From: a virus
Length of the DNA: 64,000 nt
Virus record (IMG/VR): IMGVR_UViG_3300009705_003007
Coordinates: 15,432-79,431 of that record
Reading direction: 5' to 3' (one strand)
The notes below the pieces were generated by a model, which saw only the letters and a list, made by a program, of their open reading frames with translations, was not told the DNA's origin and ran no database searches. A program made the position numbers and the translations under genes. Of this stretch, positions 4,776 to 41,582 are shown in pieces. Positions within the stretch are counted from its first letter, which is position 1, and each line of letters begins with the position of its first letter.

Positions 4776-7700
4776 TGAGCAGTCATGACACAGCATTTAA
4801 ATGTAGTAAAGACCCAAAAACGAATGACACTAAATCAAAGTGTACAGACGCTGGAGGTAATTGGGATTCGTATAACTCAACATCAAGCGATTATACCACA
4901 TTAGAATTGGGTATTTTTCAGCAAAGCTTTTTAGGCCTGTCCATTATGGACTGGAGTTCAAATCTAGGGTTTAACGGAAATGGATCAAGTTTAACCGTAA
5001 ACTTAGTTAGAGATGAATTTAATACACGGTCGTTCTTAACACCCTCTGGAACTAGAGATGCTATAACGGAAGGTTATCATAGCTGGAACCCAGACGCTTT
5101 CCCAAAAGACATGTTAACTAAATACGGCATTGACACCTCGCCTGATGCTGAGCCGGGGAATTCCGAAGACGGAATGGGGCTTATATATTCGCAGTTTGGA
5201 GATATAGCTCACATGCCAGATCCGGGAGAGCCTGTTTTCTTCCATTATTATAACGGCGCGGATTTGAATTCAACTTGTGTTCTTGAGAGAAATTGTAACA
5301 AAGCGTTTTCATTTCCGGGAATATTAACCAAATACGAAAAGAGGTTTTCTACATCTGGATTAACCTATTCCGTAAACATAGCAGACCCCCGAACCATCTT
5401 GGAAAACACCATAGTTATCTTAAATGGGTATGCGTCTAGGGTTTCACCCAGTGATTACTATACGGTAGCAGATAGTCTACGAACATACGAAGATGGATGG
5501 AATGGATATTACAACATATTAAATGTCTATGGGTATTACGAACATCACGGCTTTAATAAATCCGATAGAACAGAAGCTGGAATGATTTGGCTTAGTCCAG
5601 ACAAAATATTTAATACAGATTGGGAATCCGAAAAATGTATGAAAAATGGCGCAGAACACGTAGTCACTGGAGCTGACTGCGCTGCGGATGGTGGCACCAT
5701 TGAGAGCAATGGAGGTCAGCATATGTTTGGTATACTTCCGGCCTTGATGGAAATGACAGGCGGCACAATTACAAGCTACCAAAATGATCAAGAGCCTTTT
5801 GGTGGCCCAATGACCTATTCTGTAGATAGTAGACACTTAGCTGAAAAAGCGCCTTTTGCAGAGATATACGGAGAGGATGGATATGGTAGTAACCCTTACC
5901 GTTCTACACACAGGTATCTATTAGATCTAGGAGACTTCCTTAGTCTAAGTCCTTATGATCCAGAATGGGGAGTAGTAGAAGACTTAAATGGAACAGAAGG
6001 GTTTATACCAACGGATTATCGAGTTGCCGGAGACTCAATGTCTCTCCTTCAATTAATACAACAGGTTTGTGAAGTTGCGGCTTCTGATTTTTACGTAACT
6101 CTAGAACCAATAACGAAAAAACTAATTGAAAGAAATTATGTTTTACCGCAAGACTACGAAGCAATAAAAAATTATTCGGGCGTTATTAGAGTTGTTGTAG
6201 TTGCTAGAAACTCAACCATAACCAAAGATGCTTTGAGCGACGCTGTAGACCTGTCTCAAAAATTACCACCAGAAGGCCCATTTGTAGACGTGGAAAATAA
6301 TCCCACACTTGTTAGTTCAACTCTTGGGTATGAGTTTACTGATCCAGTAGAAGGTAAGATTTTATTGGGTGGGCCAAGAACAAGGGTTGTGGGCGTCACA
6401 CCTATTGGAGATAGAAGACTTAGAAAAGAGCTATTCTATAACGACACATCACGCAAGTATTTAGATATGTCATCAAGAGCCTACAAATGTATGGATGATA
6501 ATGACGTAGAAGTGCCGGGGATGGTAGATGATACGGCGTGTTTGAACGAAGATGCAACAAACACATGGGAAGAAGTTGACACAACAGAACAAAGTCCAGC
6601 ACCAGTAGAGGGAACAGACTCTATATTAACAGAGTATTTACCGAATGTAGAATTGGATGGAGTTACCCTTACTCGTCAAGACATACCAGAAGACACTTTT
6701 TTAGATGGAACGACTTTTGGTTGGAACCCTTATGGAAAAGTTGGAGTAACTGACAAAGACCTTTTTCCAGATTTTGCACAAAACCTTCCTCCTGTTAGTA
6801 ACGATAATTACATTCCTTGGTATTGGCCTCAAGACTATTCTGGCGACAAAAACGAAGAAGCAGACCCTTTCCAGTTTAATAGAGTTAATTCTTTGGAGCA
6901 ATCAAATGCTGGGGATTGCGTTTTTTCTGGCAATACTCCAGAAAATTTTTATTGCAAAGCGGTGGATGACGCTAACCAAGGCAGTCCAACAGAAGCGGAA
7001 TGTGTAGCAGCTTCGTCAGATAACGTCTGGACAACAGCTCCCAGTAGCGAAGACGGTTGTGACGGAGCTGAAGGAGGCTGGACTGCTAAACAAGAATCGC
7101 TCAGTTCTGGTTATTTAGACATATTCCCATGCTGGGGATATATTGAATATGAACACACAGAAGGTGGCGCGTATAAGAATTTGCATGGAAGCTGTATAAA
7201 AACAGGAGAAGCTGGAGATGTTGGGGTTGAGGCAGCAGACAAGGAGGCTTGTGAAGCATTAGGTTTTGATCATAAATGGGTTCCTGATCCTCCATCAGCC
7301 ATTCAAGCAACCGATCCGCTTCTTGACATAGTAGATAATACTGTTCAGGGTAAACCAATTAAAGGTTTTACTTGGGATGATGATCCCTACAGAGACTTTA
7401 ATCCAGTAGAAGGTATTTTCAGTGGAATAGAATGGTGGAATCCGAGTATTGGAAACTGCGAAGACAAGTCTGGTGCTTTAGTGACAAAATGGGAGAATAT
7501 GCCCAACATATGTGAATGTAATCCAGATAAGTCGGAGGCAGACTCAGACTGTGTGACAATAAGGGGTGGTGATAAAGGATTATATATATTCAGACCTCAT
7601 TGCGTACCTTGGAGCGCCTGTCGTGGTAAAACAGGAGAGGATATATTAGACACCACCGGTGGTCTTGCTGGGTCAGGAAACAGTGTAGCTTCAACGTCTT

Positions 7701-10700
7701 ATGGGTGTGAGTTTGGATGTTTTGATCTTAAAGTGGACAGCAACGGTGATCCATTGGATCCAGAAGAACCAGCATCTTCTAATTCTAGATTAGTAGCCTA
7801 TTATACAAAAGAGTTTACAGGAACAGGATCCACGCCTCGTACTTATAAAAAAGGAGAGAGCGCTAACAAAGATCATGATAAGTGGGCGTCAAACCTAAAA
7901 AACGGAACTGTTCAACTAGTGGCAAGCGCAGACGACTGTGTGAAAAGTGGAACATTCTTAGATCCTCCAGTAAACAGGGGTTCTTTTAGAACTTCTTCGA
8001 GTGGCGGAATCGCGGAGTCTGCTACGTGTGACATTAATGCTGCGGATAACCCCAGTCAAACGAAATGTGAACAATCACAATGTGAAGGAGATAGAGGTAA
8101 AACAAACGCTGAATGTACCGCAGCAGGCAAAACTTGGAAAAAGGGAAAATGGAAAGAAGGAGATGAAAATGATTATGAGAGTGGTGGCGGTCTTTATTCA
8201 CAGGAATGTACAGCTCTTAGTTTTAGAGAAGACTGGATGCATGGTTGTTATTCTACGACAGAGATTACGGGAGATATCCCGTATCCTGCTAACAGTCTAA
8301 CTGATGCAGTATCACCCAAAGACTGTAGAATCAAATACCCTACAGCAAAATGGAGAAACATAAAAGAAAACGAATACCCACCTCAAGGGCTTACAGACCC
8401 ATTCACGGGTTTAGTATTAGAAAAAGAAGATATTCCAGTGCCGGGATATGTAAAGACAAGACAAAGACTAAAAGGTGAATGTCACATGTTCTCAGAAACC
8501 GAGAACGAGGAGACTGGCTCAATAGACTCGGAAGACGAAGGCTTACCAGAGAATCCAACCAATGACCCAAGAGAATGTATGGCACAAAGTACCGCAGCCA
8601 CTGAGGATAACCTCGAAGCAAATGGCAAAATGGTCTATGGGCCTATAGACCTTAATACTGGAATAGGTCTACCTCTAAAATGTAGAACCTCAACCATTCC
8701 TATAGATTTAGGACAAGTTGATTATTATGGTGGCCCCAAGCCAGAACATAATGATCCCGGTGGTCAATTCCAAGATTTTCATTACGCGACAGTAACAGAA
8801 TTGAGACATGCCGCAACTAGTAAAGAATCTTGGCTGATCTTTATGAAAGAACTTCAGCCATATTTACCCTGTCATATGTATCATCAAGACCCACAGCAGT
8901 CAAACGCTTGGGGTGATCATTGTCCAGCCAAAGATAATATTGTTATGAAAGGTGGTATGAGCGGATCTTATGTAGACGCAGCAAATGCTTTAACTGGGTT
9001 TGAATCAAGAGGTGTTTCTGTACCTGAAACTAATCCTTCTCCCGCGAAAGCAAAAACGGTAACGGGTGAACCATGTGGAGATGAAGCCCAAAGCGCCCTG
9101 ATGACAAACTACGAAAAAACAAGCATGATGATAGATCTCGCTTTTAAAAAGGTTGCACATGTAGCCACGCAGTTCTACGGAAGGAAGTATTTGGTTCCGC
9201 TTCCTTATAATCCACCATCAACCATAACGTGTACAAACCCAAGCCATAAAGACAAAGAAGCGTGTGAAAATCTAGGATTTGATTGGGGCGCACATGGCTT
9301 ACAAAGCGAATGGTTCCACAAAATGGGCGTTGGGAGATGTGCAAACGGAACAAGTCCCGATAAATATCATTGCCAAATAGTTTCAGGGGATATATGGATT
9401 GAACCCATTCAAGAAATTAACAGATGGGAAATTGCAACTTCCGCATGGCCCGGAGGAGATATAGAATTTAACTTTGGTAGCGCAGAAGGAAAAGCTATTA
9501 ATACTGGCTATCCACAAAATATGAACTTTTGGACTGATGACGGGAATTTAAAATCCTTTGTTATATTCCCAGAAAAAGAATGGCAAAGATTCTCTGGAAA
9601 TTCTGTGCCTGTAAGTTTTGCCTCTTTTGATGCAGAAACTTTTTACAAAACTCCATTTAACGCTGGCCCTCATGATAATTGGGGTGGCAAGGTGTATGTT
9701 CCTACGCAAGTAGACCCAAAAACACACTGGTTAACAGATAGACCTGACTGGGAGGTTCATCATGAACTTCAGTATAAAAAATATTTAGCTGGTAGCCCAA
9801 TGGAGCTTCCTAAAGGTGGTGAAACCGCCGCCCAGCTGAAAAGTTTAGCAACGTTAGCCGTAGTTGGATGCGAACCAACAGAGGAGATTTGTTCTAAGAC
9901 TAAACCAGATGGTACTGCCTGTACAGACCAATCGTCATGCGAAGATGACACTAATGGGTGTGGTGGTAGTTGGCACCTTCCCACAGACACATCAAGAATA
10001 TTAAAAGAAAGACCAGTTATAACAAAGGGAACAACTGGAGTATTTCCTCAAGAAAACATTACTGATTACGCTGCATATAAACCATACGCAATGGTAACAC
10101 TTCCGGCAACCGCTATTTATTCACACACGGATGAGTCTAAAAAATTACACGACTCTGTAGGTGGAGAGAAGAATCACATGTGTGTGCCTTTATTAAAAGC
10201 TAAAAATTCAAATAGCTTATTACAGGCATGGTTAATGGGTTGGGATCCTTTAAGTATAGCAAGACAAAATGTTGTAGCTTGGGGTGCTAGAATAATGGCT
10301 AATAGTAGTGTTGGGCCTGACATGAAGAAGGGGTCTTTTGCGGGAGCCGCCTATAAACCTTGGCATGCAGCAGTTCCTCAACAAAGCAGACATTATAGAT
10401 GGGGAGCTTGGGCCGCAGGTTGGGATTTTGGAAAACCCGACTTCCAAATAGATGAAGCATTACACCCAGCCGCTTTTGGAGGGGAAAAAGGAATGAATAA
10501 AGCTGCTATGGCGAGAATAAAATCTACAATTGGTAAAGCTCAAAATAGAACTCAAGAAACCGGTAGTATTCAATTAACTGGAATACCAGCATACGCTTTT
10601 GGTACACAGTTAGTATACGACAACGCTGCTGGCGAAACAGTAAAAGGGCCATTTATTACAGATGTTAGTGTCCAGATAGGATCCGGAGGTTTAACAACAA

Positions 10701-10855
10701 CCTACAACTTTACTACAAACAGAAAATTTGGAGATTTAACAAAAACATACGAAGATAGAATCAGAAAGAGTCAACGAGACCTTCTTGCTAATCTTGCGAG
10801 AACAGAAGAATCAATCAGAAGAACAAAACGAGGAATAGACCAATATCAAAAATAG
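4775..10855 (+). CDS. Giant Cys-rich putative tail hub/tip protein, 2026 aa
   Basis: N-terminal (FLGLSIMDWSSNLG...LTVNLV) and C-terminal (ETGSIQLTG...ITDVSVQIGSGGLTTTYNF) beta segments resemble phage tail-hub proteins. Many Cys/Trp inserts. No signal peptide. Confidence 0.5.
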   Translation: MSSHDTAFKCSKDPKTNDTKSKCTDAGGNWDSYNSTSSDYTTLELGIFQQSFLGLSIMDWSSNLGFNGNGSSLTVNLVRDEFNTRSFLTPSGTRDAITEGYHSWNPDAFPKDMLTKYGIDTSPDAEPGNSEDGMGLIYSQFGDIAHMPDPGEPVFFHYYNGADLNSTCVLERNCNKAFSFPGILTKYEKRFSTSGLTYSVNIADPRTILENTIVILNGYASRVSPSDYYTVADSLRTYEDGWNGYYNILNVYGYYEHHGFNKSDRTEAGMIWLSPDKIFNTDWESEKCMKNGAEHVVTGADCAADGGTIESNGGQHMFGILPALMEMTGGTITSYQNDQEPFGGPMTYSVDSRHLAEKAPFAEIYGEDGYGSNPYRSTHRYLLDLGDFLSLSPYDPEWGVVEDLNGTEGFIPTDYRVAGDSMSLLQLIQQVCEVAASDFYVTLEPITKKLIERNYVLPQDYEAIKNYSGVIRVVVVARNSTITKDALSDAVDLSQKLPPEGPFVDVENNPTLVSSTLGYEFTDPVEGKILLGGPRTRVVGVTPIGDRRLRKELFYNDTSRKYLDMSSRAYKCMDDNDVEVPGMVDDTACLNEDATNTWEEVDTTEQSPAPVEGTDSILTEYLPNVELDGVTLTRQDIPEDTFLDGTTFGWNPYGKVGVTDKDLFPDFAQNLPPVSNDNYIPWYWPQDYSGDKNEEADPFQFNRVNSLEQSNAGDCVFSGNTPENFYCKAVDDANQGSPTEAECVAASSDNVWTTAPSSEDGCDGAEGGWTAKQESLSSGYLDIFPCWGYIEYEHTEGGAYKNLHGSCIKTGEAGDVGVEAADKEACEALGFDHKWVPDPPSAIQATDPLLDIVDNTVQGKPIKGFTWDDDPYRDFNPVEGIFSGIEWWNPSIGNCEDKSGALVTKWENMPNICECNPDKSEADSDCVTIRGGDKGLYIFRPHCVPWSACRGKTGEDILDTTGGLAGSGNSVASTSYGCEFGCFDLKVDSNGDPLDPEEPASSNSRLVAYYTKEFTGTGSTPRTYKKGESANKDHDKWASNLKNGTVQLVASADDCVKSGTFLDPPVNRGSFRTSSSGGIAESATCDINAADNPSQTKCEQSQCEGDRGKTNAECTAAGKTWKKGKWKEGDENDYESGGGLYSQECTALSFREDWMHGCYSTTEITGDIPYPANSLTDAVSPKDCRIKYPTAKWRNIKENEYPPQGLTDPFTGLVLEKEDIPVPGYVKTRQRLKGECHMFSETENEETGSIDSEDEGLPENPTNDPRECMAQSTAATEDNLEANGKMVYGPIDLNTGIGLPLKCRTSTIPIDLGQVDYYGGPKPEHNDPGGQFQDFHYATVTELRHAATSKESWLIFMKELQPYLPCHMYHQDPQQSNAWGDHCPAKDNIVMKGGMSGSYVDAANALTGFESRGVSVPETNPSPAKAKTVTGEPCGDEAQSALMTNYEKTSMMIDLAFKKVAHVATQFYGRKYLVPLPYNPPSTITCTNPSHKDKEACENLGFDWGAHGLQSEWFHKMGVGRCANGTSPDKYHCQIVSGDIWIEPIQEINRWEIATSAWPGGDIEFNFGSAEGKAINTGYPQNMNFWTDDGNLKSFVIFPEKEWQRFSGNSVPVSFASFDAETFYKTPFNAGPHDNWGGKVYVPTQVDPKTHWLTDRPDWEVHHELQYKKYLAGSPMELPKGGETAAQLKSLATLAVVGCEPTEEICSKTKPDGTACTDQSSCEDDTNGCGGSWHLPTDTSRILKERPVITKGTTGVFPQENITDYAAYKPYAMVTLPATAIYSHTDESKKLHDSVGGEKNHMCVPLLKAKNSNSLLQAWLMGWDPLSIARQNVVAWGARIMANSSVGPDMKKGSFAGAAYKPWHAAVPQQSRHYRWGAWAAGWDFGKPDFQIDEALHPAAFGGEKGMNKAAMARIKSTIGKAQNRTQETGSIQLTGIPAYAFGTQLVYDNAAGETVKGPFITDVSVQIGSGGLTTTYNFTTNRKFGDLTKTYEDRIRKSQRDLLANLARTEESIRRTKRGIDQYQK

Positions 10856-10865
10856 GTAAACAATA

Positions 10866-12680
10866 ATGGCTGGAAACGCAATACCATACGCAGGCCAAGG
10901 TGGCTCAGAAGATAGAGAAAAAACCGATCTGGCTGATTATAGCCACTTGATGTTATCGAGCGTGTATAACATTACTGAAAATCTTGTTGCTAGAGATGGC
11001 TCAAATAAGGTTATGTTCTGGGATAATCACCCAGATTACGAAGGTGGGGAAATAAAAATAAGAGACTCAACTGCAACAACCATGACAAGTCCAGCAGTTA
11101 CTTACATGTCTCAATTTCCCGGAGATAGCTCTTGGGAGAAAGCTGCGGGTATGTCTTTGGATGGTTTGTTTGTGCCTTATGCAACAAACTTCAAAGTAAA
11201 AAATGATGGTGGTAAAGACGCAGATCTAAACAGACCATTAGATGACACCGGAATGCCAACTTTTGAAAGACCTTATAGTTCAGCCCAATTAGACGTAGCC
11301 GAAGATAGAGTTCCTTTTAATGAAGTTGTAGGACATCCAGATTTAGGTATTAATGCCCCATCACCATCTTTTATTACGTCTGTGTCTTTAAACCCATTTG
11401 CTTCTGGTCATTACGTCGCTCGTCTTAATAAAAATGAAACTATCACTAACCCAAGTCAGGATGCTATTGGTGGTGGTTACGCAACAGATGTTCCAACATT
11501 AGCCGACGCACCAACAGATCAAACACATGTAGCAAGACCAGTAGGTCTTAGAGGGCCAATGGTAATGGCTGGTTGGGGTTATGACATATATGAATTGCCA
11601 GTCCCTAACCTTAGATTTGATGCTGAGTTTAGACATAATGATCCGGGATCTGCAAATTATGGAAGACAACGATACGTGCCTACACCAATGCAGGCAAAAA
11701 CAGCATCAGGTATGCAGAAAGACCACAAGCACTTTATACCAGTTCATATGAGAAGACCCGACCAGTGGAAGGTTGGCCCTATTGACTTAAGATGGGATCA
11801 CCAAAGAAAAGTTTGGGCTGGTGGTAAACACAATGGAATATACTTATCAAAAGCTACTAAATGTATATTACCACAAGCTGGTCTAGATGGGAATAATTCA
11901 TTCAACTTTGGCGTTGGTGGAAACGTAAATGCACCGGGAAGGCTTTACAGAAACCCGTGTCCAACACACGAATGCACACACACGTCCTATTTTCCAACAA
12001 GCATATACTATCCAGATATTGAAATATATGATCCAGAAGATCATAACTGGTGCGGTAGATGTAGAACTTTAGGACATCTAACAGCTTGTGCAGATTTTAA
12101 AGATGGCTGCTCTCCATTTTATGATGCACTTATACTAAGACCAATTGATGAAGTGGTTGGACAACCAAACACTCTTACGGAATGTACTGATAAGTTTAGA
12201 AAAGTACAGGGTGGATCACCCGGACAAAGAAGGGCTGGAAACCCATGTCATGGATGGGGTTCTAGTTATTTCGGAGAAAAAGAATTCATTAATAGGAAAA
12301 TTGGTGAAGAGAAAACTTGGACACAACATGCAAAAGCTATGATGTACGAAAAGATATTTATAGAAAACCCTCTAGGCCAAGGTTTAATGGTAGGAGACGC
12401 GTTTTTCAGTTATGATACTGGTAAGAGAATAGTTTATGAATATGAGAGAATGGTTGATGCTAGCTGTGGGCAAACTGCCGGAACTACAGTAAAAGTAAAA
12501 GAAGCAATACCTGTTCATATTATATTACAAGGTGAGTTTTACGGAATGGAAATTATTTCGCACGCAGGTTGTGATAGAGGCGAAATGGCTGCTTGTTCTA
12601 AAAAATTCTTTGCTCAAGGCTTTGCCACAGCGGAAGACTGCGGGCCTGATGATGATTATCCACAAACAGCAGGACTATAA
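10866..12680 (+). CDS. Putative virion structural protein, 604 aa, Cys-rich C-terminal half
   Basis: Long ORF in the structural operon, overlapping the next gene's start. Gly/Trp-rich core (GLRGPMVMAGWGYD, WKVGPIDLRWD) followed by a Cys-rich domain. Confidence 0.5.
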   Translation: MAGNAIPYAGQGGSEDREKTDLADYSHLMLSSVYNITENLVARDGSNKVMFWDNHPDYEGGEIKIRDSTATTMTSPAVTYMSQFPGDSSWEKAAGMSLDGLFVPYATNFKVKNDGGKDADLNRPLDDTGMPTFERPYSSAQLDVAEDRVPFNEVVGHPDLGINAPSPSFITSVSLNPFASGHYVARLNKNETITNPSQDAIGGGYATDVPTLADAPTDQTHVARPVGLRGPMVMAGWGYDIYELPVPNLRFDAEFRHNDPGSANYGRQRYVPTPMQAKTASGMQKDHKHFIPVHMRRPDQWKVGPIDLRWDHQRKVWAGGKHNGIYLSKATKCILPQAGLDGNNSFNFGVGGNVNAPGRLYRNPCPTHECTHTSYFPTSIYYPDIEIYDPEDHNWCGRCRTLGHLTACADFKDGCSPFYDALILRPIDEVVGQPNTLTECTDKFRKVQGGSPGQRRAGNPCHGWGSSYFGEKEFINRKIGEEKTWTQHAKAMMYEKIFIENPLGQGLMVGDAFFSYDTGKRIVYEYERMVDASCGQTAGTTVKVKEAIPVHIILQGEFYGMEIISHAGCDRGEMAACSKKFFAQGFATAEDCGPDDDYPQTAGL

Positions 12681-15600
12681 TGGCAATAGGCGATCCTTGG
12701 GACACAAGTTATAACCCTCGTTATAACTACCCTCTTAAAAATCAACACACTGGTAAACCCGCATGGATGCCAGACGCTTCCGATGAAGTACCTCAAGATA
12801 ACCCTCTTGCCCTAAAAGATAGAAGAAAGGGTAGATTCTGTACTGAGGGATGTGGCTGCATAGATACGTATTGTAGTAATTTAGCAGGGGCTAGATGTAC
12901 TCTTCCTCCTGAATTAGCTATTACCATAATGAGAACACCGGATGGTAGATACCAAGCTAGAAATGGTATTGAAAATGGTGAAGGTGAAACCTATCATCTT
13001 AAATATTCTAACGGGTCTTGGAGAGGCAGTAGGTGCTGCTCTCATAACGCAGATGGATCTCTTAATTATGCCTGCGACCCATGTAAAGTAAGCACACTTC
13101 CAAATGGAAAACCGTCCGAGTGTCACCACGCCAATAATAAATATAAAGAATTAGATAGCAATAAGCAGGTAGGAGATAATTTCACCCCAAGGGGTAAATA
13201 TCACTATGACGCAGCTATGCATGGTGAGGCATGGCCAAGAAGGGGTGTAGACACTTGGTTAGTACCAGATGGGTATAACGAAACCCTTCCTACCGATGGT
13301 ACTGAAATGCTAAAGTCCTCGGAGAGAGTGGGAAGATATTCGGGTTGTTTTAATATAGACGGCTCATTACAAGAGGTTGACGCAGCAGTTACCGATGATG
13401 CGTCATGTAAAGATTTACATGGGCCGAAGGCTTATTGGAATGAGTTTATACCTAGTTGGACAAACAATGACGTAAAAGACAGGCAGTCTGTTGAAGATTT
13501 AATTGGTACTGAATTACAACAAACTCAATTTTCTAAGAATTCGACCTCTGCTCGCTTAAACATAAAAGCAGTAGAAAAAAGAATACGCATAGATAAAGAA
13601 AATTATCTTGTTGGTTATAGCATCCAAAATGGATCAGACGAAGATGTCGCTGAAAACATTGCAGATCCACGTATTGCTTATTCAACTGTTGACTCTAGAG
13701 AAGGTGGATGTATAGAAGACGGGGCAGCACCAATAAAGAAGCGCCCTTGGTGTAGAAATGCAGGAACGGGAACAAGAATACGACAACAGTGTACCGACAC
13801 ACAGCATAAAAACAAAATAGACTGCGAAGATGCGGTTATTCCCGGTACTAGCGAAACGACTACATCAGAAATTTGGCTTTATGATGATAAGAGCGAGTGT
13901 CAAGGTTCTGGTTTTTGTTACCCACCTGAAGAAACAGGCGGTACTGGCGTAGCAGATTTATCCGTAGAAGCACTTAAGCCTCACTGTGTAACAAAAGCTT
14001 ATTGTGAAGGAACGTCGGATAATTGTAGCCAATCAGTCGTTGATCCCGACACTGGGATAGGTAGAACCTGCGACACTAAAGACGATTGTGAAGCTCCGGT
14101 CTATGGAAATACTGGATGTGGTGGTTCGTGGCTTAACAATCCAGTACTTAATAAAGCAGATTGTATCGACCTTGGGGAAAAATGGGTAGGAGAACAAGAA
14201 TATACTCAGGGTTATTGTATTGATGAAATAGGACAAAGAGTTCCTTTAGATGTTCCGGCGGGAATGACAGAACAAGAATGTAGAGATTCCGATAAGGAAA
14301 CATGGGTAGATCCCTCTAAAAGCAAAAAAGGTTGTGAGGAAGTTTTTCCAGAAGACGCTCCTAACGGAACAGAATGGTCGCTTGGAAGTGAAAACAGTTG
14401 TGAGTCCCACAACAAAGGTAAAGATGCGCTTTGTAGAGACTCTGATGGTAATGTTATAGATGGTAGTTGTAGCTTAAGCTCCGACGAAAACAAAACACAG
14501 GAAGACTGCGTAGAATTATCTTGTTACGAAACTAGTAGCGGCGCAAAAGTTAGCAAATCAGAAGGCGAGTGTCTTGGCCCGATTTATTCTTGGAAAAAGG
14601 GGGTTTGGACTCCTTTTTCTAAAAAGAGTGTTTGTGAGGCAGCGGATGGAACGTGGTATAGTAATGTTTGGATGCCAAACGACTGGGTTGATTGGGAATA
14701 TGAAAAAAGGTCTTGTTGCGGGGGAACCATTTTAGACGAAGCTCACCCATTTCACACTCCCCAGATTTCAGGAGGCGCTCGCAACACAAGAAAAAATACC
14801 GTGTGTTTCACTCCTTATTCAGAAGTGATTCTACATACGGATGCGATATCCGGCTTCATTGGAGATAGCCGAGGAGAAGGCTGTACCTCTATCGGAAATC
14901 AATTTGATAGGCAGTTATTCTTCCCAGATATTGAGAGCTATTGGACTGTCATAATTAGACCATGCAACTTCTGGGGTTCTTGCACAGAAGAAGGAAAAAC
15001 AAGACCAGACCCTAGTGAATTAACAGGACAGCCTGATAATTACTTTGACACGACATGCGGAGAAGAAGTAGTTCTGTACCTTCCAGTAGATCAAATGTTA
15101 AATTGCTCTAACTTTAATCTAACACTGCAAAGTGAAGAACAATTGAGATCTGGATGGAAAGAGTCAGAACCAATGTGGGATGAAAGAATGGGATCGTTTG
15201 AGTACGGAAACCCCGCAACCAACATTGCCGCAAAGGTTGGAATGAGTTCAGCTGTAACGGGAGCTGGAAATATATCAGGAGGTTTCCCCGGAACGCCTTT
15301 TGGAACTCAGTACCCTGCGTGGTGTATGAATCCAGATGCAAATTTTGATGGAATAGCTGACGGACAAGCGTTTCAGGGATCAGCGAGTGGTCGGAATTTT
15401 TGTGATCAGTATGTTTATTATTCATCTGGTGCAGAAAAGAACCGACTTGCTAACGCTAAAGGGGCAGAAGTCCTTCACGGTTTTAATATACAACCACAAC
15501 CCTTCAAAGCTACCGAAGAAAAGCAAAACAGAGCTAAGTCTTTCGAACAAGCCCTTAATGATAAAGCGTATTGGCAAAAGTGCGTGGGTCATATAATGGG

Positions 15601-18600
15601 AGACTATGGCGGTGGTGGTCATTGGTTTTGGAATTATGGCGTAGATTATTTCATGTATTATGATTTTGTTGCATGGGGTGAAGTTTACCCAACCATGAAA
15701 GCGGGAGGTCATTGTGCGGATATAGCTCAAAAAGTATGGGATTATGTTGAGACTCATGATGGTTTCTTGAGACGTGGCGATTGTGGCTATGGAAACGGAG
15801 CCTTGTGGGTGGGGTGGGTTGAAGACGATGGCGTGGACAACGACTTTATGTGTCCAAAGTGTTTAACAATCAACGATGAAGGACAATGCAATAGTGCAAC
15901 TACATGCATGTTGCCAGATGGAACATCTGAACAGGGCGACTGCGCAAGTGGTCAAGGTCAATGTATGGACATTGGAGGAGATGCCGTAGAGGGAATAACT
16001 GAAGAAGGAGATTGTAATGGAGAAGGACAAAATTGGAGAGACGGAGTAACTGAAGATTGTTGCGAATGGTTCAAATTTTGTTCGTTCGACATATGCACCA
16101 ATTTCGATGACGTTCAAGAGAGTCAGGGCTTAGTCGATTGTGTATGGAGAAAAGCAGACACAAAAGAAGAGTGTGAGAGGAAGATGAGCAACACGGGCGC
16201 TGGCGGTATTTGGCAAGACGGATGTGTTCCAACTGAAGCAAGATTACTACTGGATGAATGCTCTCCTGTTCACGATATACCAGAAGAACTTATAAACATT
16301 GTTTTGGGAGAAAAGGTAGGTGAATGTACTTGTTTTAATGAAGCAGGTGACGACCTTAGCGCGAACCTACCTGAAAATGAATGTCAAGAATTGGTAAATT
16401 CTGGGGTTTGTGATGGAAGTATTCCTCCTGCATTTAACCCAGATATGGTTGGAGGTCAAGGAAGCACTTATCCAGTAAGAGAAAACAACGTAGTTAAACT
16501 AAGGGTTGATGGGCCTTTAACCACAGAATTGACCGACCTGAGCGAAATAGAAGACGGTTTTCTAAAGTCTAAATGTTGGCTTAATGACGAAGTGTTTACG
16601 GTTAGTTTTGGTGAAATAGACAAGGCGCTTTGTCTTGCTATGAATAATAATCCACTTACACCGGGAGTATTTAGATGGGGGCCAGACTATTACACAACTG
16701 AGTTTGGGTTAAAACGTCGTAGTCCCTTATCTGGAGGAGAGGGAGTAGGCAATGCCATGACTTACTGGCATCACACTGGGCTTTTCCCCAAAGGTGAGAT
16801 GGCTAGTTATGTTAACGATCACTGCATGGGAACTATGCAGCATAGAAGAATCCAGTACGCCAGCAACGAAAGACCAATCAAAATAACTTCCAGAAACCAC
16901 CTATTAAAAGACGGTGATCTTGTTTCTACTTGGGATGTCCAAGGCAATTTTGGTGCTAACGTCATGACTAATCGTGATTGGCAAGAAACCCAATGGGAAG
17001 ACAAGATATATAGCCCATGTGTTGGAGAGACTTGCGACGAAGTAATGTGGCCAAATAGCGTTTGTGCCGAGTCCACAATATGCTTAGACGAACAGGGTAA
17101 TGAAATAAAGGGAGCAGGTAGAGAATCTTGTACAGGAGGAGAATGTGAAGCAACAAGAAAGGATGGTTCCAAATGTAATAGTCAAAATGCTTGTGAAGCA
17201 GAAGCGGAAGAATGTATCCCTCTGCAATCAGATGGCACTTGTAAAGAAGGTTTTGTAAAAGATAAAGATTATAAGTTTGATAACGCAACCCAAAGCCAAC
17301 CCACATGTGATGAGAAGAAATTTTCATGCTGTTATAATAAAGAAGACGGTGCTGGGATGTGTTTAAACACCCTGTGGGAAAACCCAGACAGCCTGATGGG
17401 ATGTGGTTCAAAGTGGGACGGAAAACAAGGAAACACCTTTAAAACATATTGCGATACCGATAAGTATTACGCTTGTAACGGAGCGCCTATATTGGGAGAA
17501 GATCCTCCTCCAATGGATTCTTTTGTAGCCAAGAACGTGACACTTGACACTTTTGATTTATTTACATGTGACAAACACCCGGTCGATGGAAGAATAAAAA
17601 ACAAAACAAATTTAGATACTGAAGAATGTGAAGACGAAAGTAAGCAAGTATGTGTAACAAATGCTGGCATGCCCTATGAGACGATTGTTGCGGAGCCTGA
17701 ATGGTCTGTTAAACTTTCGCCCTTCGAAGATGAGAAATATTTTGGACTAGTGGGCCACGAAGCTTTCGAAAAGCAAGAATGGTGCGCTGCTGGAGATCAG
17801 CTAAGACCAGAACACACTAGTAATGCTGCGTGTACCCATGCAGGTTTTACTTGGACTAATAATTATTCGCTTGAAACAGGTTCTTGTGACATAGACTCAA
17901 ATAACAACATAAAATACAACGACTGTATAGAATTAGCCTGCTACATAGAGGACAGGAGAACAAGAAAGTCAGAAACAGAATGTGTTGGGTCTGACGTTAA
18001 CGGAGTGGCTTTACTCTGGAAAAAGGGAAACTGGTCAGGTGGGGTTGATGCAGACGTTAGATGTATTACTTTTGGGAAATGCCTAATTGTAGACAATGCT
18101 ATTGGCGTGTCTGAAGGCATGATGACAAGAGATGAATGCACCCTTCTTGGAAAAACCTTCAGAACTCTTCATACGAACAAACCTTACACAGATGGAACAC
18201 AACAATATCTGCATCAATGCTATGATGGATCTGCTAATGCAGATAATCATGAAGACATTATACGAAAGGCTATGGACGTTGATGAATTAGAAAAAGTATG
18301 TCTAGCAAAACATAGTAAATGTATAGATTATGATGGCAATGACTTAGGCATAGGTAATGAAAGCAATTGCTTATCAATGGGTGGAACGTGGCAAACTGGT
18401 AAAGTCCAAACCCAATATAACGAGTGTGTTAAAACAATAGAGGGTGAGTTGGGGGTTTTAGACTACTCGTTCGGAGATCCTTTTAAAAACTGTTTTATTG
18501 AAAACGCATGGAAGTCCGAAATGATGCTGGACGACACGAGTTCCATGGTCTCAAGCTTTGGAGTACCCAGCGTGGGCGTTTGGAAGACATGTCCATTCAC

Positions 18601-21600
18601 TGGTCAATGGGACTATTGGGGAAATGCCAACGATGATGTTGGTGTAGAAGCTGGTTATGTAAGCCATCTTAATGCTGATGAACTGGATTCCAAATTCAAA
18701 CTTGGATGGGGAGGGCCGGGATATAAATGGGAAGAAAGAGCAAACGATTACTATGTACAAATTGAACAAAAAGGTATATGTCCAGTATGCTGTGATCACT
18801 TTATGCCTAGAAGTCTTATTGCAACAATTTCAGACCAACCAACTGAAATATTGAATCATATACAATGTAGAATGGATCCTTGTGATGCACCAACAGCGAA
18901 TGATTCGTTTGGTATTAACGACGTGGGATCCGCTAATCATGATGGCTATTGTTGTGCAGACGCGCATCATCCTTGTGTTTTAGGTGATGATGTTCCGAAT
19001 TGTGAAAGTGAATTCATTCCTCTTCCTAACGGTAGCTTAAAGCCTGTAACTTTTGGTCAGTGTTATAAAGACGGCGAATTGCTTGTTTCTTTCAGACGAG
19101 ATGATTGCGTTAGGAAGAGAGGTGGCACGTTTGTGCCGGTAACAGCGCCGGAGATGTGTGATCCATTCATAAGAACACGTCTCAGTAATGCTGGAACTAC
19201 GAATTGTAGGAAGTGTTCAGAGGTGTATAGCTCCAGACATAAAGTTAAAACTTATGCGGAAACCGGAAATGTAAAATCGAGAGAAAGAGGGCTCTTGAGT
19301 TATTCAGGAAGTAATTGCTGCGAAGATGGAACGTTATGTGAAAGAACTACAAACGCACAAGACAAAAACCTTCTGGACGAAGATTATCCTTATCCAACAT
19401 GTGAACAAGTAAGATTTTTATGCCCGCCTTGTACGGTAGAGGGACAAACATGTAACAAGGGACAAGTATCAGCATTATGCAAGGTGACGCTTGATCCTTA
19501 TGGAAATGAAGTTGGGATTGATTGGCAGTTTGAGCCTTGTATTTGTTTCCCAAACAATGTTTCGTATGAGTATGAGCCTGAATTTGTAGTCACGGGTGAC
19601 GCAGGAAACTCGGCAGCCGGAAGTTGTGATTTCAATGGGGTTAAGAATAGCGCTGGGGATATGGGGGTAGATAATGCTGGAGGATGTTATGACGTTAACG
19701 GAAACATAGTAGTAGGAAAAGAGAGAAAAAACGGCGCCTTAGAATCAGACTGTGCTAGTAACGAAAAATGGAAAAGCGGATCTGGTGGTTGTATGCCAAT
19801 GCATATAGAAGCATACGCTGATGAATCTTGCTACGATCTAGGAAATTCTATTGAGTCATACGATTCGACATGTCCCGGATTCGACGCGATTGACGTACCA
19901 ATGGAATACGATGGGGTTGTATGGAGATCAGAATGGGAGTTGATGAATGAAGTTGGCTTAAAGACATGTGAATTTGGCATGCATAGATTCCACTGGCCTG
20001 TAAATTGTAGAGCAACTGGCCCATCAGGAAGTGATTATACTGCTCCATCAGAAATTGTTGCTGTCGGTGGTGACTGTGACGGATGCGACATGCCTCAAAT
20101 GGGCTTGCATGGAATATTGGTTGACGGAAGAAAAAGCTGGCTAACACATAGAAATGCAAAACTACCAAACGCAACTAATGACGGGCATTTTATTAGATTA
20201 GTAATGGGCTGTGGAAACTCTATACCATCAATAGACGCTTATAGAAGTGGTGATATAGTTGATGGCGGCTTTGGGCCAATATTAGGAGCCACTTATAGAG
20301 ATAACGGTATTAAAATATGGTCAGAAATAACCAACTGTACCTTTACAGACGCTATGGGTTCTGATGGTCTAAGAATAGACAGGGTTGATACTGGTGTTTC
20401 TGGTAGTCCTCCTATCTTTCCCCTCAAACCATGCATATCAAAAAATCAACTAGTTAAGGCGATGCACGGAAAACTTCCTACACCGGGAGATCCAACTGAA
20501 ACAGAAAGAGTCTATACGTTTGCTGGAAGATGTATAAGGAAAAAAGACTGTGGGCCAAAGGGGCCATGTCACGGTACAGACTGCTGTACTTACAAGGGAA
20601 GAGATAAAAGGTACTTCAGCGCCCCGCTTTGGAGTGGAGGTATTGCTTGTTCGACAGGCGGAGACCTTGCACATAGATGTCAGGCAACTGGTTTCGATCC
20701 CCTTCCTTCAAAACCGGCAGAACAATTTACTGTTCATTATATAAAAGATGTTAATCCTGTAACGGGTGAAGGAACGCTCGTTGTTCCAGCTTACGCCCCA
20801 ACATTTGGTGGTAGAAGGTGTCATTATGAAAACGGAACTCCCGTTGGTATTGGTGTAGCCGAATTACAAGATGCTGAACTAGACACTTTTGGCGATTTTT
20901 CAAGAAATAACAAATCTAGAAATCCATATCTACCAGCCGGTGGCACAGTCATAACGGGGTCTAAAACGTCATCTACAAAATCTTCTGTTACTACTTATAA
21001 GCGACACGACGGTATTCCAAGCGGAGATGCCATACCTGACGAACATGGTGATAAAGGTCGTGGTAATGGTCAGTTTATGGAAATAAAGGTCGCAAATGTT
21101 GCACCGCTTATAACCAAAAACCCAAGGAAGAACAGACATTTAAGAATCTATGATAGGTCGAGAGGAAGCGCAGCATCTGGTTTTCATAACGCCACCACTC
21201 TTTCTGGCATGAATATGCTACAAAGGTATGACTTACCGCAGCCTTACGGTTTAAATCCTTGGCCTGTCGATCACCAAACGCACTCAACCTCCTATAGTCC
21301 ATGGCCTAAAGGTGGCCCACATTCACCTAATGCTTTATTGGGGGGTATACCTACGGAGAGTCTAAGAAAAGATCCTGCTCTTTCTCTTAATCAACCCGGA
21401 AGAGTTGGGCCTATGCCAACAATGGATAATCTAAATAGAATGTTTAGGTATAATGAAGTAAACATGGGAGATGGAGCGACCACGCCCATTCCAGAAATAT
21501 TTCCTTTTGAGCCTGTTCAGATTGATGGGTTTGATAATGTCTATTCAGACTCATTAGGAGCTTGTACTAATTCTTATTACAAAACCAAGGGTGCTTGTAA

Positions 21601-23752: not shown

Positions 23753-23762
23753 GAGGAATATA

Positions 23763-24389
23763 ATGAAGGGTTTTTTTAATAACGAAGAAGAAGACGTTAA
23801 TGCTTTAGAGAAGAAGCATATAAAGAGGAATAAGCCTCAAGTCTTCGATAATATAATAAGTGGTGGTAAAAAGGTTAAGGATTATATCGAACCAGAGAGA
23901 CAAAGAGAAACGCCCTGTCAATGTCAAATGACAGAAGATACAGGAAGTATATTTTGCGATAGACATCAATGCATAAAAAGCAAGTCCTTGCATCATCTAT
24001 GTAAAAACAGAATGGCTTATTTTGAAATGTGGGAAGAAGGCAAAGGGCCAATGCAAGACCCGTTAAGTCAAACGATGGTGTCAAGAGGTCACAGAGGAAC
24101 AGAAAATAAGGAAGAACAGAAAACTAAACAACAAATAGGATTTTTTAAAGTGGAAGAAGATAATGGATTCTTTATGGGCGATTTAGACATACCGTCTGAA
24201 TCAAGAGGTTTAGGAGACACTTTAGCAAAAATAACCAAGGTTACAGGAATTAAGAAGGCTGTAGACACAGTGTTTAGCGCCATAAAGAAGGATTGCGGAT
24301 GCAAGGAAAGACAAAGTAAGTTAAACAAAGTCTTTCCCTACAAAAGGGATGAAGCCAAGCAACATAAAACAAAAGGCTTTTTCCAATAA
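23763..24389 (+). CDS. Conserved phage hypothetical protein with Cys/His cluster and GLGD...CGC..RQ..LN motif
   Basis: GAGG RBS precedes the ATG at 23763. Motifs CQC...CDRHQC...HHLC and RGLGDTLAKITKVTGIK...CGCKERQSKLN. Confidence 0.6.
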   Translation: MKGFFNNEEEDVNALEKKHIKRNKPQVFDNIISGGKKVKDYIEPERQRETPCQCQMTEDTGSIFCDRHQCIKSKSLHHLCKNRMAYFEMWEEGKGPMQDPLSQTMVSRGHRGTENKEEQKTKQQIGFFKVEEDNGFFMGDLDIPSESRGLGDTLAKITKVTGIKKAVDTVFSAIKKDCGCKERQSKLNKVFPYKRDEAKQHKTKGFFQ

Positions 24390-25161: not shown

Positions 25162-25199
25162 ACCCCGTCAGTTTGTCACCGAACTGTCGGGGTTTTTTT
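25162..25199 (+). terminator. Rho-independent terminator at the convergence of the two arms
   Basis: Stem ACCCCGTCAGTT / AACTGTCGGGGT (one mismatch) followed by a T run. Overlaps the 3' end of the opposing ORF. Confidence 0.75.
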
Positions 25200-25826
25200 G
25201 TTCCACATTAGAGCGCACCCGCAATAGACATCCCATTCCTTGGAGAAGTCGTAGACGTTATATTTTTCCTCAGCTACAATCTCTTCATAAATTTTTACGG
25301 AGTCGTGACCGCCACCATCGTCTTCCGTGTCATCAAAAAGAATGTATTGAGGTTCCGTTAAAAGATTTCTTGAGATAGCGAAGTCTTTCATAACAGACTC
25401 TCTTTGGTGGTCGCCGTCTAGAAAGCAAAAATCAAACTGGTTCTCGGAAAGATTTCTTATTGACTCCCTGATTAACTCAGTGTTTTTTACAACTGAGTCT
25501 ACATTATGATCAAGCAGTTCTTCGTTGTTGACATAGTGCCAATCCGATGAATTGTTTACATGAGGGTGAACAATTAGCTGTTTAACATTCTTTGATTCAA
25601 CGTCTTTATACTTGTGTATATCAACAGTGACAACAATGCCATCAGGTTGGTATTCATCGAAATATTTTTGAAAAACTTCGGTTGATTGACCGATATGAGT
25701 TCCTATTTCCAAGCAGTACTTTGGCTTTAGATGCACCAAAGAGGAAAATAAGGCTTTTCTAAATTGACGATTTTCATTTTTAAATAGACTAGCTTGTTCA
25801 GCTTGAATCTTAATTATGTCAACCAT
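25176..25826 (-). CDS. Class I SAM-dependent methyltransferase (Methyltransf_24-like)
   Basis: LEIGTHIGQST motif I and DFCFLDGDH motif. Confidence 0.8.
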   Translation of the reverse strand: MVDIIKIQAEQASLFKNENRQFRKALFSSLVHLKPKYCLEIGTHIGQSTEVFQKYFDEYQPDGIVVTVDIHKYKDVESKNVKQLIVHPHVNNSSDWHYVNNEELLDHNVDSVVKNTELIRESIRNLSENQFDFCFLDGDHQRESVMKDFAISRNLLTEPQYILFDDTEDDGGGHDSVKIYEEIVAEEKYNVYDFSKEWDVYCGCALMWNKKTPTVR

Positions 25827-26155
25827 TATTCTTCTTTTTGTGTATCAGGATTCCATTTAACCCAGCCGCCATCGGGAAGCCAGCCACCTTCTTTGTCCTT
25901 ACGTTTGGGAAAGAGTCTTCCACCCTTTTTCATAACGCCAAAGGCAAGCTTGGAATTACATCCAGTACACCTTGCCTCATGATATAGATTGTCATCTACG
26001 TTTCGCACTTGAAAGCGAACATCTTCGCTGCCGCATTTTCCGCATATGTTCTCTGCGAAAATTTCTTGAAAATTGGCCAACCGTTGAAAAACTTCAACCT
26101 GTGTGTCGCCTTCAATTTCTACGGTAGTTCTTCCAGAAGTATAAGTAACTTTCAT
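25826..26155 (-). CDS. Zn-ribbon hypothetical protein
   Basis: CGKC...CTGC pairs; overlaps both neighbours. Confidence 0.65.
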   Translation of the reverse strand: MKVTYTSGRTTVEIEGDTQVEVFQRLANFQEIFAENICGKCGSEDVRFQVRNVDDNLYHEARCTGCNSKLAFGVMKKGGRLFPKRKDKEGGWLPDGGWVKWNPDTQKEE

Positions 26156-30246: not shown

Positions 30247-30318
30247 GTATGCACCTGTTTGTCGTGATCCAACCTGCTTATATATATAATAACGATTTTT
30301 TCTTTATTGAACCCAATA

Positions 30319-32992: not shown

Positions 32993-32993
32993 G

Positions 32994-36931: not shown

Positions 36932-36932
36932 G

Positions 36933-41553: not shown

Positions 41554-41582
41554 ATGGTATGCAAGTCTGAGGTTTTTGTCAA
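41554..41582 (-). promoter_or_regulatory. Sigma70-type promoter TTGACA-N17-TACCAT upstream of ssb
   Basis: Perfect -35 (overlapping the dnaE-C stop), exact 17-nt spacer, and a -10 retaining the conserved T, A and final T. Confidence 0.6.

What the first reader, a model, noticed from the sequence alone, without database searches (positions are those of the whole stretch)
13745..14700. Recursive 'Russian-doll' nesting of Cys-Cys-Trp modules in the 3690-aa protein
Seen: the basic unit is C-x(5-20)-[T/S/N/D]-[K/E/Q]-x-x-C-x(3-8)-W. Complete units sit inside the loops of other units, so the closing Trp residues pile up like closing brackets. Example: SENSCESHNKG[KDALCRDSDGNVI[DGSC..KTQEDCVE[LSC..KSEGECLGPIYSWKK]GVWTPF]SKKSVCEAADGTWYS]NVW-MPNDW-VDW, at least 3 levels deep. 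The same logic appears at 6911-7081 in the 2026-aa gene: GDCVFSGNTPE[NFYC..TEAEC..NVW]TTAPSSEDGCDGAEGGW. Inference: these proteins grew by repeated insertion of a small Cys-stapled module into its own loops. That would give a branched, tree-like architecture rather than a linear repeat array. I do not recognise this as a described architecture.
Basis: partly seen in the sequence, partly recalled or inferred. Interest (0 to 1): 0.85.

Follow-up and report, generated by a model that had tools for sequence, protein, structure and literature searches.

The report
Self-nested Cys-Cys-Trp fingers, phage tail
Two giant tail-tip proteins of an uncultured marine phage vary in length between relatives mainly by gaining or losing a 20-30-residue two-cysteine, one-tryptophan finger also found in the phage T4 baseplate proteins gp8 and gp10, and this finger is sometimes inserted into the loops of another copy, up to three deep.

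Summary
Residues 585-659 of the 3690-aa protein (12680-23752) parse as three nested C..C..W units. The 2026-aa protein has a two-deep nest at 6917-7081. Related phages give the strongest evidence. The outer unit is compact in eight relatives, and the inner 51 residues occur only in this phage and its closest relative. Of 66 indels of 18-120 aa, 28 hold a whole unit, against 8.8 for random segments. Units also sit inside host units at three other orthologous sites.

Three corrections are needed.
- The trailing Trp residues (NVW, NDW, VDW) are not closing brackets.
- Only a minority of the 184 Cys lie in such units. The conserved 70% core is equally Cys-rich but is not visibly modular.
- The unit is not unknown. 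It is the C-x10-C-x6-W loop of T4 gp8 (C142/C153/W160, PDB 1N7Z) and of gp10 (C331/C342/W349).

Disulfide pairing could not be tested. Two AlphaFold runs gave pLDDT 44-47, and no coordinates were available. No DNA-level mobile element was found.

The scan reported the same architecture earlier in another genome (e1-5731340, e1-5731341).

Verdict: a real, self-recursive variant of domain insertion built from a known but uncatalogued module.

The parts
12680..23752 (+). Gene for the 3690-aa Cys-rich distal-tail or baseplate protein (P0001)
   Evidence: ORF. Ten full-length or near full-length homologues in marine viral contigs. It lies downstream of a 2719-aa tape measure gene.
13745..14700 (+). 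Hypervariable Cys-module region named in the finding (residues 356-674)
   Evidence: Residues 340-720 span 381 aa here, 405 in L003, 249 in L006, 223 in L004, 194 in L007 and 193 in L002.
14432..14656 (+). Level-1 host unit C585 / C652 / W659
   Evidence: It is compact (C-x14/15-C-x6-W) in L002, L006, P0005, P0006 and P0037. Here and in L003 its C1-C2 loop carries a 51-52-aa insert.
14468..14608 (+). Level-2 unit C597 / C610 / W643. Together with level 3 it forms the recurring four-Cys 'double module'.
   Evidence: Grammar parse. Present only in this phage and L003. Five paralogous copies are aligned in A5.
14522..14593 (+). Level-3 (innermost) unit C615 / C631 / W638, of the CLGPxYxW subtype
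   Evidence: Profile hit of 27.4 bits. The same subtype sits at five non-orthologous sites in four lineages.
13790..13876 (+). Host unit C371 / C382 / W399 with an enlarged C2-W loop
   Evidence: It is compact (C-x9/10-C-x6-W) in P0006 and L004. L003 and L006 each carry a whole two-Cys, one-Trp unit between C2 and W.
14069..14185 (+). Depth-2 parse C464 / C495 / W502 (less certain)
   Evidence: Found by grammar and peeling. L003 has a clean double module at the orthologous place.
17885..18034 (+). Second double module, C1736 / C1749 / C1754 / C1768 / W1780 / W1785
   Evidence: Aligned with its paralogues in A5.
18320..18391 (+). Simple unit C1881 / C1897 / W1904, which acts as a host unit in a relative
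   Evidence: Best profile hit, 33.1 bits. P0006 carries a whole unit inside its C1-C2 loop.
4775..10855 (+). Gene for the 2026-aa protein (P0002), which carries the same units
   Evidence: (10 simple units against 2.1 in shuffles).
6917..7081 (+).
   Evidence: The whole block is missing in the L002 orthologue and is Cys-free in L007.
8027..8152 (+). Double module of P0002 (C1085 / C1098 / C1103 / C1114 / W1121 / W1126)
   Evidence: Present only in this phage and L003, and absent as one block in L002, L005 and L007. Weak match to Pfam Gp10_D3 positions 58-87.
4802..4864 (+). N-terminal simple unit of P0002 (C10 / C23 / W30)
   Evidence: 23.2 bits. Absent in the L007 and L002 orthologues.
4662..4718 (+). 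C-terminal simple unit of the 789-aa protein (C753 / C765 / W771), the copy closest to T4 gp8
   Evidence: Aligns with gp8 residues 135-162 of PDB 1N7Z and with 9F4A. Pfam Phage-Gp8 positions 138-170, E = 0.003. A 30-aa tblastn query matches 1077 phage records; the 40 listed (an even sample of the ranking) are T4-like phages, mostly at genes annotated gp8 or baseplate wedge subunit.

Best explanation
The repeating unit is a 20-30-residue 'finger'. It consists of a short strand carrying Cys1, a variable loop, a short N-capped helix ([S/T]-[K/E]-x-x-Cys2), a Gly-rich turn and a strand carrying Trp. The same element sits as a loop in T4 baseplate wedge proteins gp8 and gp10.

Inferred: Cys1 and Cys2 form a disulfide once the virion is in oxidising seawater. 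The Trp packs on that disulfide, and the two ends of the finger lie close together. A unit built like this could be spliced in frame into any exposed loop without breaking the host fold, including its own two loops.

Shown: over evolutionary time whole units, and ready-made two-unit blocks, have been inserted and deleted in these giant distal-tail proteins. This happened at surface loops of conserved domains and inside other units. It produced nests up to three deep through two insertion points:
- In the Cys1-Cys2 loop, which would give enclosed (nested) disulfides.
- In the Cys2-Trp loop, which would give sequential disulfides but nested Trp closures.

Inferred function: rigid, disulfide-braced surface decoration of the tail tip. 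Its number and arrangement differ between related phages. It most likely tunes the exposed surface or reach (adhesion or spacing) and has no catalytic role.
For: Unit defined and non-random: (41 profile hits against 0 in reversed or shuffled controls).

Nesting above chance: 6 against 0.8-1.6; 9 host units revealed by peeling, against 3.5 +/- 1.8 in controls.

Indels are units: 28 of 66 pairwise indels of 18-120 aa hold a whole unit, against 8.8 +/- 2.7 (maximum 16 in 200 trials) for random segments.

Clean lineage-specific inserts of 27-34 aa with 2 Cys and 1 Trp occur in P0006, L003 and this phage. Inserts of 78 and 92 aa with 6 Cys and 3 Trp are themselves three-deep nests.

Insertion inside an otherwise compact host unit is seen at four orthologous sites in the 3690-aa family (C371/382/399, C585/652/659, C1881/1897/1904 and the L003 double module). 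It is seen at one site in the 2026-aa family (L007, host C1486/C1497/W1504).

Cys co-loss fits Cys1-Cys2 pairing for C3229/C3240.

Link to T4: gp8 C142-x10-C153-x6-W160 and gp10 C331-x10-C342-x6-W349. HMMER alignment to PDB 1N7Z and 9F4A. Weak Pfam matches that fall exactly on those profile segments. 1077 phage records matched, almost all T4-like, with the listed matches mostly in genes annotated gp8 or baseplate wedge subunit.

Tail context: the tape measure gene lies directly upstream.

Disulfide networks in phage tails have precedent (PMC10811340, by title and abstract).
Against: - No structural test succeeded. AlphaFold gave mean pLDDT 47 and 44 with shallow alignments, and no coordinates were returned. 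Disulfide connectivity, the role of Trp and the closeness of the unit's ends are therefore inferred.
- The loose grammar finds nearly as many single units in sequences with fixed Cys positions (20 against 16).
- Depth 3 alone occurs in 4-9% of shuffles.
- A profile-based peeling test found no junction-spanning hits.
- The compact host region holds an odd Cys (C574), so some pairings must leave the units.
- The direction of change (gain or loss) is not resolved. L004 has a one-Cys remnant at the insert site, which suggests partial deletion.
- The function is pure inference.
Confidence: 0.65

Rival explanations
1. Ladder or hairpin reading. The nest is not a set of independently folded domains inside domains. 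It is one elongated finger: the 'opener' Cys run up one side, the helix-Trp 'closers' run down the other, and each level adds a disulfide and Trp rung. Gaining or losing a level then changes the finger's length.
For: In nests that use the Cys1-Cys2 loop, the openers are only 4-12 residues apart, while each closer is about 20 residues (P0006 92-aa insert; this phage 585/597). The low-confidence AlphaFold models place the Trp segments in consecutive short strands. Earlier notes from this scan on another genome read it this way. Those notes are unchecked.
Against: Half of the nests here use the other insertion point (Cys2-Trp loop), where the inner unit is complete and contiguous (double modules). 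Inner units also occur alone at other sites, so they can presumably fold alone. No confident model exists.
Confidence: 0.25
2. Pattern-matching artefact. The Cys-rich stretches are ordinary larger multi-Cys domains, for example a single four-Cys, two-Trp domain with other disulfide connectivity. The bracket parse is then a coincidence in a protein with 5% Cys.
For: The loose grammar has low specificity. Several relatives show no nesting above chance. The double module always moves as one block. The profile peeling test was negative.
Against: Both halves of the double module fit the single-unit consensus in spacing and motif. L003 carries a further simple unit inside the inner half. Host units exist without their inserts at orthologous positions. 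Indels are strongly enriched for whole units.
Confidence: 0.12
3. The units are spread by a selfish DNA element that inserts in frame, like the Rickettsia palindromic elements. They would then not arise by ordinary duplication, recombination and selection on protein structure.
For: The same CLGPxYxW subtype lies at five non-orthologous sites in four lineages. Units occur in three different genes of the operon.
Against: There are no DNA repeats longer than about 30 nt among the units and no terminal inverted repeats. Copies of the same subtype share only 50-56% nucleotide identity, concentrated on the codons of conserved residues.
Confidence: 0.05
4. The paired Cys bind a metal, or stay reduced, and do not form disulfides, because virions assemble in a reducing cytoplasm.
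For: T4 carries the same unit and assembles in the E. coli cytoplasm. No phage-encoded thiol oxidase was identified in the window.
Against: Each unit has only two Cys, 10-20 residues apart, with no His or a second Cys pair. This is unlike known Zn sites. The same half-motif is common in bacterial proteins with signal peptides, that is, in oxidising compartments. P0001 has 184 Cys and P0002 has 48, both even numbers.
Confidence: 0.08

Closest known systems
Loop of T4 baseplate wedge protein gp8, about residues 135-162 (PDB 1N7Z, also 5IV5 and 9F4A), and the equivalent segment of gp10 domain 3, residues 331-349 (Pfam PF09215 and PF22670)
   Same: Same C-x10-C-x6-W spacing. Same [S/T/D]-K-x-E-C helix start and GG-x-W end. 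Also located in a peripheral baseplate or tail-tip protein.
   Different: T4 has one isolated copy per protein. Here there are dozens, they are polymorphic between relatives, and they are inserted into each other. No overall homology to any T4 baseplate protein was found. Pfam scores are below the gathering thresholds.
Russian-doll domain insertion in the T4 tail sheath protein gp18 (domain I inside II inside III inside IV; PMC3004832)
   Same: Successive insertion of one folded unit into a loop of another in a phage tail protein, three to four levels deep.
   Different: In gp18 the nested domains are different folds of about 100 or more residues, and they are fixed across relatives. Here one 25-residue unit is nested in copies of itself, and the nesting differs between relatives.
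Thrombospondin type 1 repeat and similar layered Cys/Trp mini-folds
   Same: Small extracellular units built from disulfides and stacked Trp.
   Different: No Pfam TSP_1 match, even at E = 10. The Cys and Trp spacing differs. This comparison comes from memory and from an earlier unchecked scan note.
Rickettsia palindromic elements (in-frame selfish insertions in protein genes)
   Same: Short peptide-coding inserts scattered in frame through unrelated genes, tolerated at surface positions.
   Different: No conserved DNA sequence, no palindromic ends and no recent copies are seen here.
Uncatalogued bacterial and archaeal secreted proteins with TKxEC-xxx-GGxW, including tandem arrays (loci L043 and L128)
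   Same: Same helix-turn-Trp half-motif with an upstream Cys.
   Different: They are arranged singly or in tandem. Nesting was not seen in the few examined. No Pfam family covers them. Homology as opposed to convergence was not established.

Membership tests
T4 gp8/gp10-type Cys-Cys-Trp finger | Spacing C-x(9-15)-C-x(4-8)-W with [S/T/D][K/E]xxC and G-G-x-W | tested here: met
   26 strict copies aligned. gp8 C142/C153/W160 and gp10 C331/C342/W349 have the same pattern.
T4 gp8/gp10-type Cys-Cys-Trp finger | Significant sequence match to the gp8 or gp10 families | tested here: inconclusive
   PF09215 scores 17 bits against a cut-off of 25. PF22670 scores 19.2 bits against 27. PDB 1N7Z gives E = 0.26. 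However, a 30-aa query matches 1077 phage records, almost all T4-like, with the listed matches mostly in genes annotated gp8 or baseplate wedge subunit.
T4 gp8/gp10-type Cys-Cys-Trp finger | Same three-dimensional fold, with Cys1 and Cys2 adjacent | not testable with these tools
   AlphaFold pLDDT was 47 and 44. Foldseek found nothing. No coordinates of models or of PDB entries are accessible.
T4 gp8/gp10-type Cys-Cys-Trp finger | Resides in distal-tail or baseplate structural proteins | tested here: met
   The genes follow a 2719-aa tape measure gene. T4 gp8 and gp10 are wedge proteins.
Nested domain insertion | The host unit is continuous and intact in relatives that lack the insert | tested here: met
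   Seen at four sites in the 3690-aa family and one in the 2026-aa family.
Nested domain insertion | Discontinuous halves of the host unit come together in space | not testable with these tools
   No confident model and no coordinates.
In-frame selfish DNA element (RPE-like) | Copies share DNA sequence and have defined or palindromic ends | tested here: not met
Catalogued disulfide-rich repeats (EGF, TSP_1, LDL-A and others in Pfam) | Profile match | tested here: not met
   No Pfam family at E up to 5-10 for the whole proteins or the nest fragments. No PHROG match.

The most novel reading that the evidence does not exclude
A 20-30-residue disulfide-stapled finger, shared with the T4 baseplate and with many bacterial secreted proteins, is a self-insertable protein cassette. 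It tolerates complete copies of itself in both of its loops. Phage tail proteins can therefore grow as branched, bracket-like trees with enclosed disulfides. Related phages remodel their tail tips by adding or removing branches.
Probability: 0.4. Interest if true: 0.75.

Novelty: new variant of a known kind. Interest (0 to 1): 0.6.

Why it matters
Domain insertion is common, but recursive insertion of one tiny unit into itself, polymorphic among close relatives, would be a distinct way for proteins to grow.
- It could help explain how phage tail proteins reach 2000-4000 residues.
- It would name an uncatalogued element of the well-studied T4 baseplate.
- It points to a very small, loop-tolerant scaffold that could be tested for protein engineering.
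- It would mark which parts of these giant proteins are the variable, probably surface-exposed ones.

Tried and rejected
- AlphaFold2 of residues 340-720 (alignment A2, 8 rows) gave mean pLDDT 47. A run on residues 556-690 with paralogues added (A4, 10 rows) gave 44. Neither model is usable, and no coordinates are returned, so Cys-Cys distances could not be read.
- ESM Atlas gave no usable hit.
- Pfam and PHROGs gave nothing for either giant protein.
- A PDB profile search with the whole family found nothing.
- tblastn of the N-terminal 1773 aa against 50,697 phage records found no match.
- An HMMER scan of all cluster representatives with the finding's region returned only 2 hits, both fragments of the same family.
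- A search for the double module (A5) in longer proteins found nothing. A search for the P0006 three-deep nest in shorter proteins also found nothing. Both are weak negatives.
- Peeling with the narrow profile gave 0 new hits. The regex version gave 9 against 3.5.
- A profile of the whole family against the T4 baseplate proteins showed no similarity apart from the unit itself.
- DNA repeat searches found no element.
Full report
**Context.** The window is bases 15432-79431 of a 79.4-kb IMG/VR virus record that CheckV rates about 53% complete. The plus-strand genes at 46-25144 follow a 2719-aa tape measure gene, which matches Pfam PhageMin_Tail at E = 2e-25. The 786-, 789-, 2026-, 604- and 3690-aa proteins are therefore distal-tail or baseplate components. 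The rest of the window holds a glycosyltransferase island and replication genes: a split DnaE, DnaB and a class II RNR. Relatives come from marine metagenomes, including TARA samples. Neither giant protein matches any Pfam or PHROG family.

**The observation.** Coordinates 13745-14700 are residues 356-674 of the 3690-aa protein, which has 184 Cys (5.0%) and 79 Trp. The quoted strings are present. I wrote a bracket grammar for the unit: C, own loop of 5-22, C, own loop of 2-12, W, with loops allowed to contain complete units. It recovers three nested units: C585/C652/W659 holds C597/C610/W643, which holds C615/C631/W638. It also recovers five further two-deep parses.

- Parses of depth 2 or more number 6, against 0.8 in global shuffles and 1.6-2.2 with Cys positions fixed. 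This count was reached in 1 of 200, 1 of 200 and 3 of 60 shuffles.
- Depth 3 alone is not rare by chance (8-18 of 200 shuffles).
- Single units under the loose grammar are barely enriched once Cys positions are fixed (20 against 16).
- The unit itself is better supported by residue preferences. The distance from Trp back to the previous Cys peaks at 7 (9 against 2.8).
- 26 strict copies align to a consensus of x-x-C-x-D-x-x-G-x(5)-[S/T]-[E/K]-x-x-C-x-x-x-G-G-x-W.
- A profile built from those copies hits the real proteins 41 times and reversed or shuffled versions 0 times.

**Comparative test.** This is the decisive evidence. I assembled eleven members of the 3690-aa family at 32-95% pairwise identity: the window protein, seven viral-contig loci and three database proteins. 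Five members of the 2026-aa family were also aligned.

- The finding's region is hypervariable in length. Residues 340-720 span 381 aa here and 405, 249, 223, 194 and 193 aa in relatives.
- The level-1 host unit is compact in L002, L006, P0005, P0006 and P0037 (C-x14/15-C-x6-W). The 51-52-aa block that makes up levels 2 and 3 is present only here and in the closest relative, L003. L004 keeps a one-Cys, one-Trp remnant.
- The host unit C371/C382/W399 is compact in P0006 and L004. In L003 and in L006 it carries a whole two-Cys, one-Trp unit between Cys2 and Trp.
- The unit C1881/C1897/W1904 is compact here. In P0006 it carries a whole unit between Cys1 and Cys2.
- L003 has a 78-aa insert and P0006 a 92-aa insert, each with 6 Cys and 3 Trp. 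Each parses as a complete three-deep nest.
- In the 2026-aa family, the nest at 715-769 is missing as one block in L002. The double module at 1085-1126 exists only here and in L003. L007 has a 45-aa two-Cys insert between Cys2 and the GFDW of host unit C1486/C1497/W1504.
- Across seven pairwise alignments, 28 of 66 indels of 18-120 aa contain a whole unit. Random segments of the same lengths give 8.8 +/- 2.7, with a maximum of 16 in 200 trials. Some indels recur across pairs that share a sequence, so this is not 66 independent events.
- Excising regex-defined inner units reveals 9 host units spanning the cut, against 3.5 +/- 1.8 for random excisions.

- The outermost bracket ('SENSC ... NVW') has a single Cys. 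W669 and W672 are conserved in relatives without the nest. W663 is Phe in those relatives. The run of Trp after W659 therefore belongs to the conserved downstream domain.
- Nesting is local and lineage-specific. 2574 alignment columns form a conserved core that is just as Cys-rich (5.4%) but shows no such grammar. P0005, P0037, L002 and L004 show no nesting above chance. The protein as a whole is not a tree of units.
- Two insertion points are used. An insert in the Cys2-Trp loop (the double module) would leave the disulfides sequential even if the nesting is real.

**What the unit is.** The C-terminal unit of the 789-aa protein (4662-4718) aligns with residues 135-162 of T4 gp8 (PDB 1N7Z) and with a second solved baseplate wedge subunit, 9F4A.

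- Reading the T4 genome directly shows C142-x10-C153-x6-W160 in gp8 and C331-x10-C342-x6-W349 in gp10. Both have the same D/E-rich helix start and GG-x-W end.
- The weak Pfam matches fall exactly on those profile segments: Phage-Gp8 positions 138-170 at E = 0.003, and Gp10_D3 positions 58-87 at E = 0.0015.
- A 30-aa tblastn query matches 1077 phage records, almost all T4-like. The listed matches lie mostly in genes annotated gp8 or baseplate wedge subunit. Individual E-values are poor (0.03-10), but the specificity of the target is not chance.
- There is no other similarity to the T4 baseplate proteins.
- From memory, not checked here: the gp8 crystal structure was described as a beta-sandwich with two loops that each contain an alpha-helix. 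That description would fit a finger of this kind.
- The half-motif TKxEC-xxx-GGxW with an upstream Cys also occurs in many bacterial and archaeal proteins with signal peptides, and in tandem arrays (L043, L128). None is covered by Pfam. That scan was truncated and about 140 chance matches are expected. Only the recurrent, conserved families among the hits carry weight.

**Mechanism.** Whole units and two-unit blocks come and go in frame, at loops of conserved domains and inside other units. This is shown.

The following points are inferred:
- The unit is a disulfide-stapled strand-helix-strand finger whose ends lie close together. That would make it insertable anywhere, including in its own loops.
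- The low-confidence AlphaFold models show a strand, helix, strand pattern for each unit, which is only a hint.
- Co-loss of C3229 and C3240 in L006 fits Cys1-Cys2 pairing. C1088 and C1139 co-occur only in two lineages and enclose four other Cys, which fits enclosed bonds.

The units are old. There are no DNA repeats beyond about 30 nt. Copies of the CLGPxYxW subtype sit at five non-orthologous sites in four lineages but share only 50-56% nucleotide identity. Copy-and-paste probably happened, but no active DNA element is visible.

Function is inferred from position (tail tip), composition and hypervariability. The units are probably rigid surface decoration that differs between related phages. 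Disulfide networks in phage tails have precedent (PMC10811340).

**What could not be done.** Two AlphaFold jobs gave pLDDT 47 and 44, the tools return no coordinates, and Foldseek found nothing.

**Relation to earlier notes.**
- First-reader notes on this genome describe the same units.
- After I had found the gp8 match, a look-up showed that follow-up reports on another genome describe the same nested Cys-Cys-Trp architecture, name the gp8 loop 138-165, and claim spread in bacterial surface proteins.
- I confirmed the gp8 link independently and added gp10. I only partly checked the bacterial claim.

**Novelty and score.**
- The unit exists in solved structures but is uncatalogued as a module.
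- Nested domain insertion is known in phage tails, for example gp18 (PMC3004832).
- Self-recursive nesting of one 25-residue unit, polymorphic among relatives, was not found in the papers searched.
- I rate it a new variant of a known kind, with interest 0.6.

Noticed in passing
L012:7029-15188 (G000:C1, just upstream of the window): The tape measure protein is 2719 aa (Pfam PhageMin_Tail, E = 2e-25). This implies an unusually long tail. No sheath family was detected among the upstream ORFs.
   Followed up: partly
window 41579-45965 (-): The DNA polymerase III alpha subunit is split into two ORFs (PHP + NTPase, and finger + HhH), with a 227-aa ORF (43152-43835) between them.
   Followed up: no
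window 23739-24389 (+): A small Lys-rich protein lies directly after the 3690-aa gene. It has CxC, CxxHxC and CGC clusters and only a weak PHROG hit of unknown function. It could be a folding or redox helper for the Cys-rich tail proteins.
   Followed up: no
window 25176-40682 (-): A dense island of glycosyltransferases and NDP-sugar epimerase or dehydratase genes lies next to the tail genes.
   Followed up: no
3690-aa family: window residue 631, L003 residue 2167, L004/L005 residue 1238, P0006 residues 927 and 1774: One unit subtype, ending C-L-G-P-x-[Y/F]-x-W, sits at five non-orthologous positions in four lineages. This suggests copy-and-paste of a particular variant. Nucleotide identity between copies is only 50-56%.
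   Followed up: partly
The repeat is related in motif to the phage unit. There is no Pfam match.
   Followed up: partly
L040, L072, L080, L089 (Alphaproteobacteria MAGs); L014, L021, L026, L063 (Methylococcales/Crenothrix); L042, L074, L118 (CPR bacteria): Families of small signal-peptide or membrane proteins are each built around a single TKxEC-xxx-GGxW motif. All are uncatalogued in Pfam.
   Followed up: partly
L061:4109-4144 (contig of 'bacterium isolate H07650-L1_cleanbin_000012'): A T4-like gp8 sequence, with the same VDVPDTGMCS...GGKWTP segment, sits in a record labelled as a bacterial bin. It is probably phage DNA binned with a bacterium.
   Followed up: no
window residues 1088 and 1139 of the 3690-aa protein (about 15941-16096): Two Cys are present only in this phage and L003 and are substituted in all other relatives. 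They bracket four conserved Cys, which makes them a candidate long-range enclosing disulfide outside the unit grammar.
   Followed up: no
L062:1-5346:+ and L131: Archaeal MAG proteins of 1782 and 2039 aa have about 7.5% Cys and 4.3% Trp in a different C..W-rich repeat pattern. They were picked up only through one shared half-motif.
   Followed up: no
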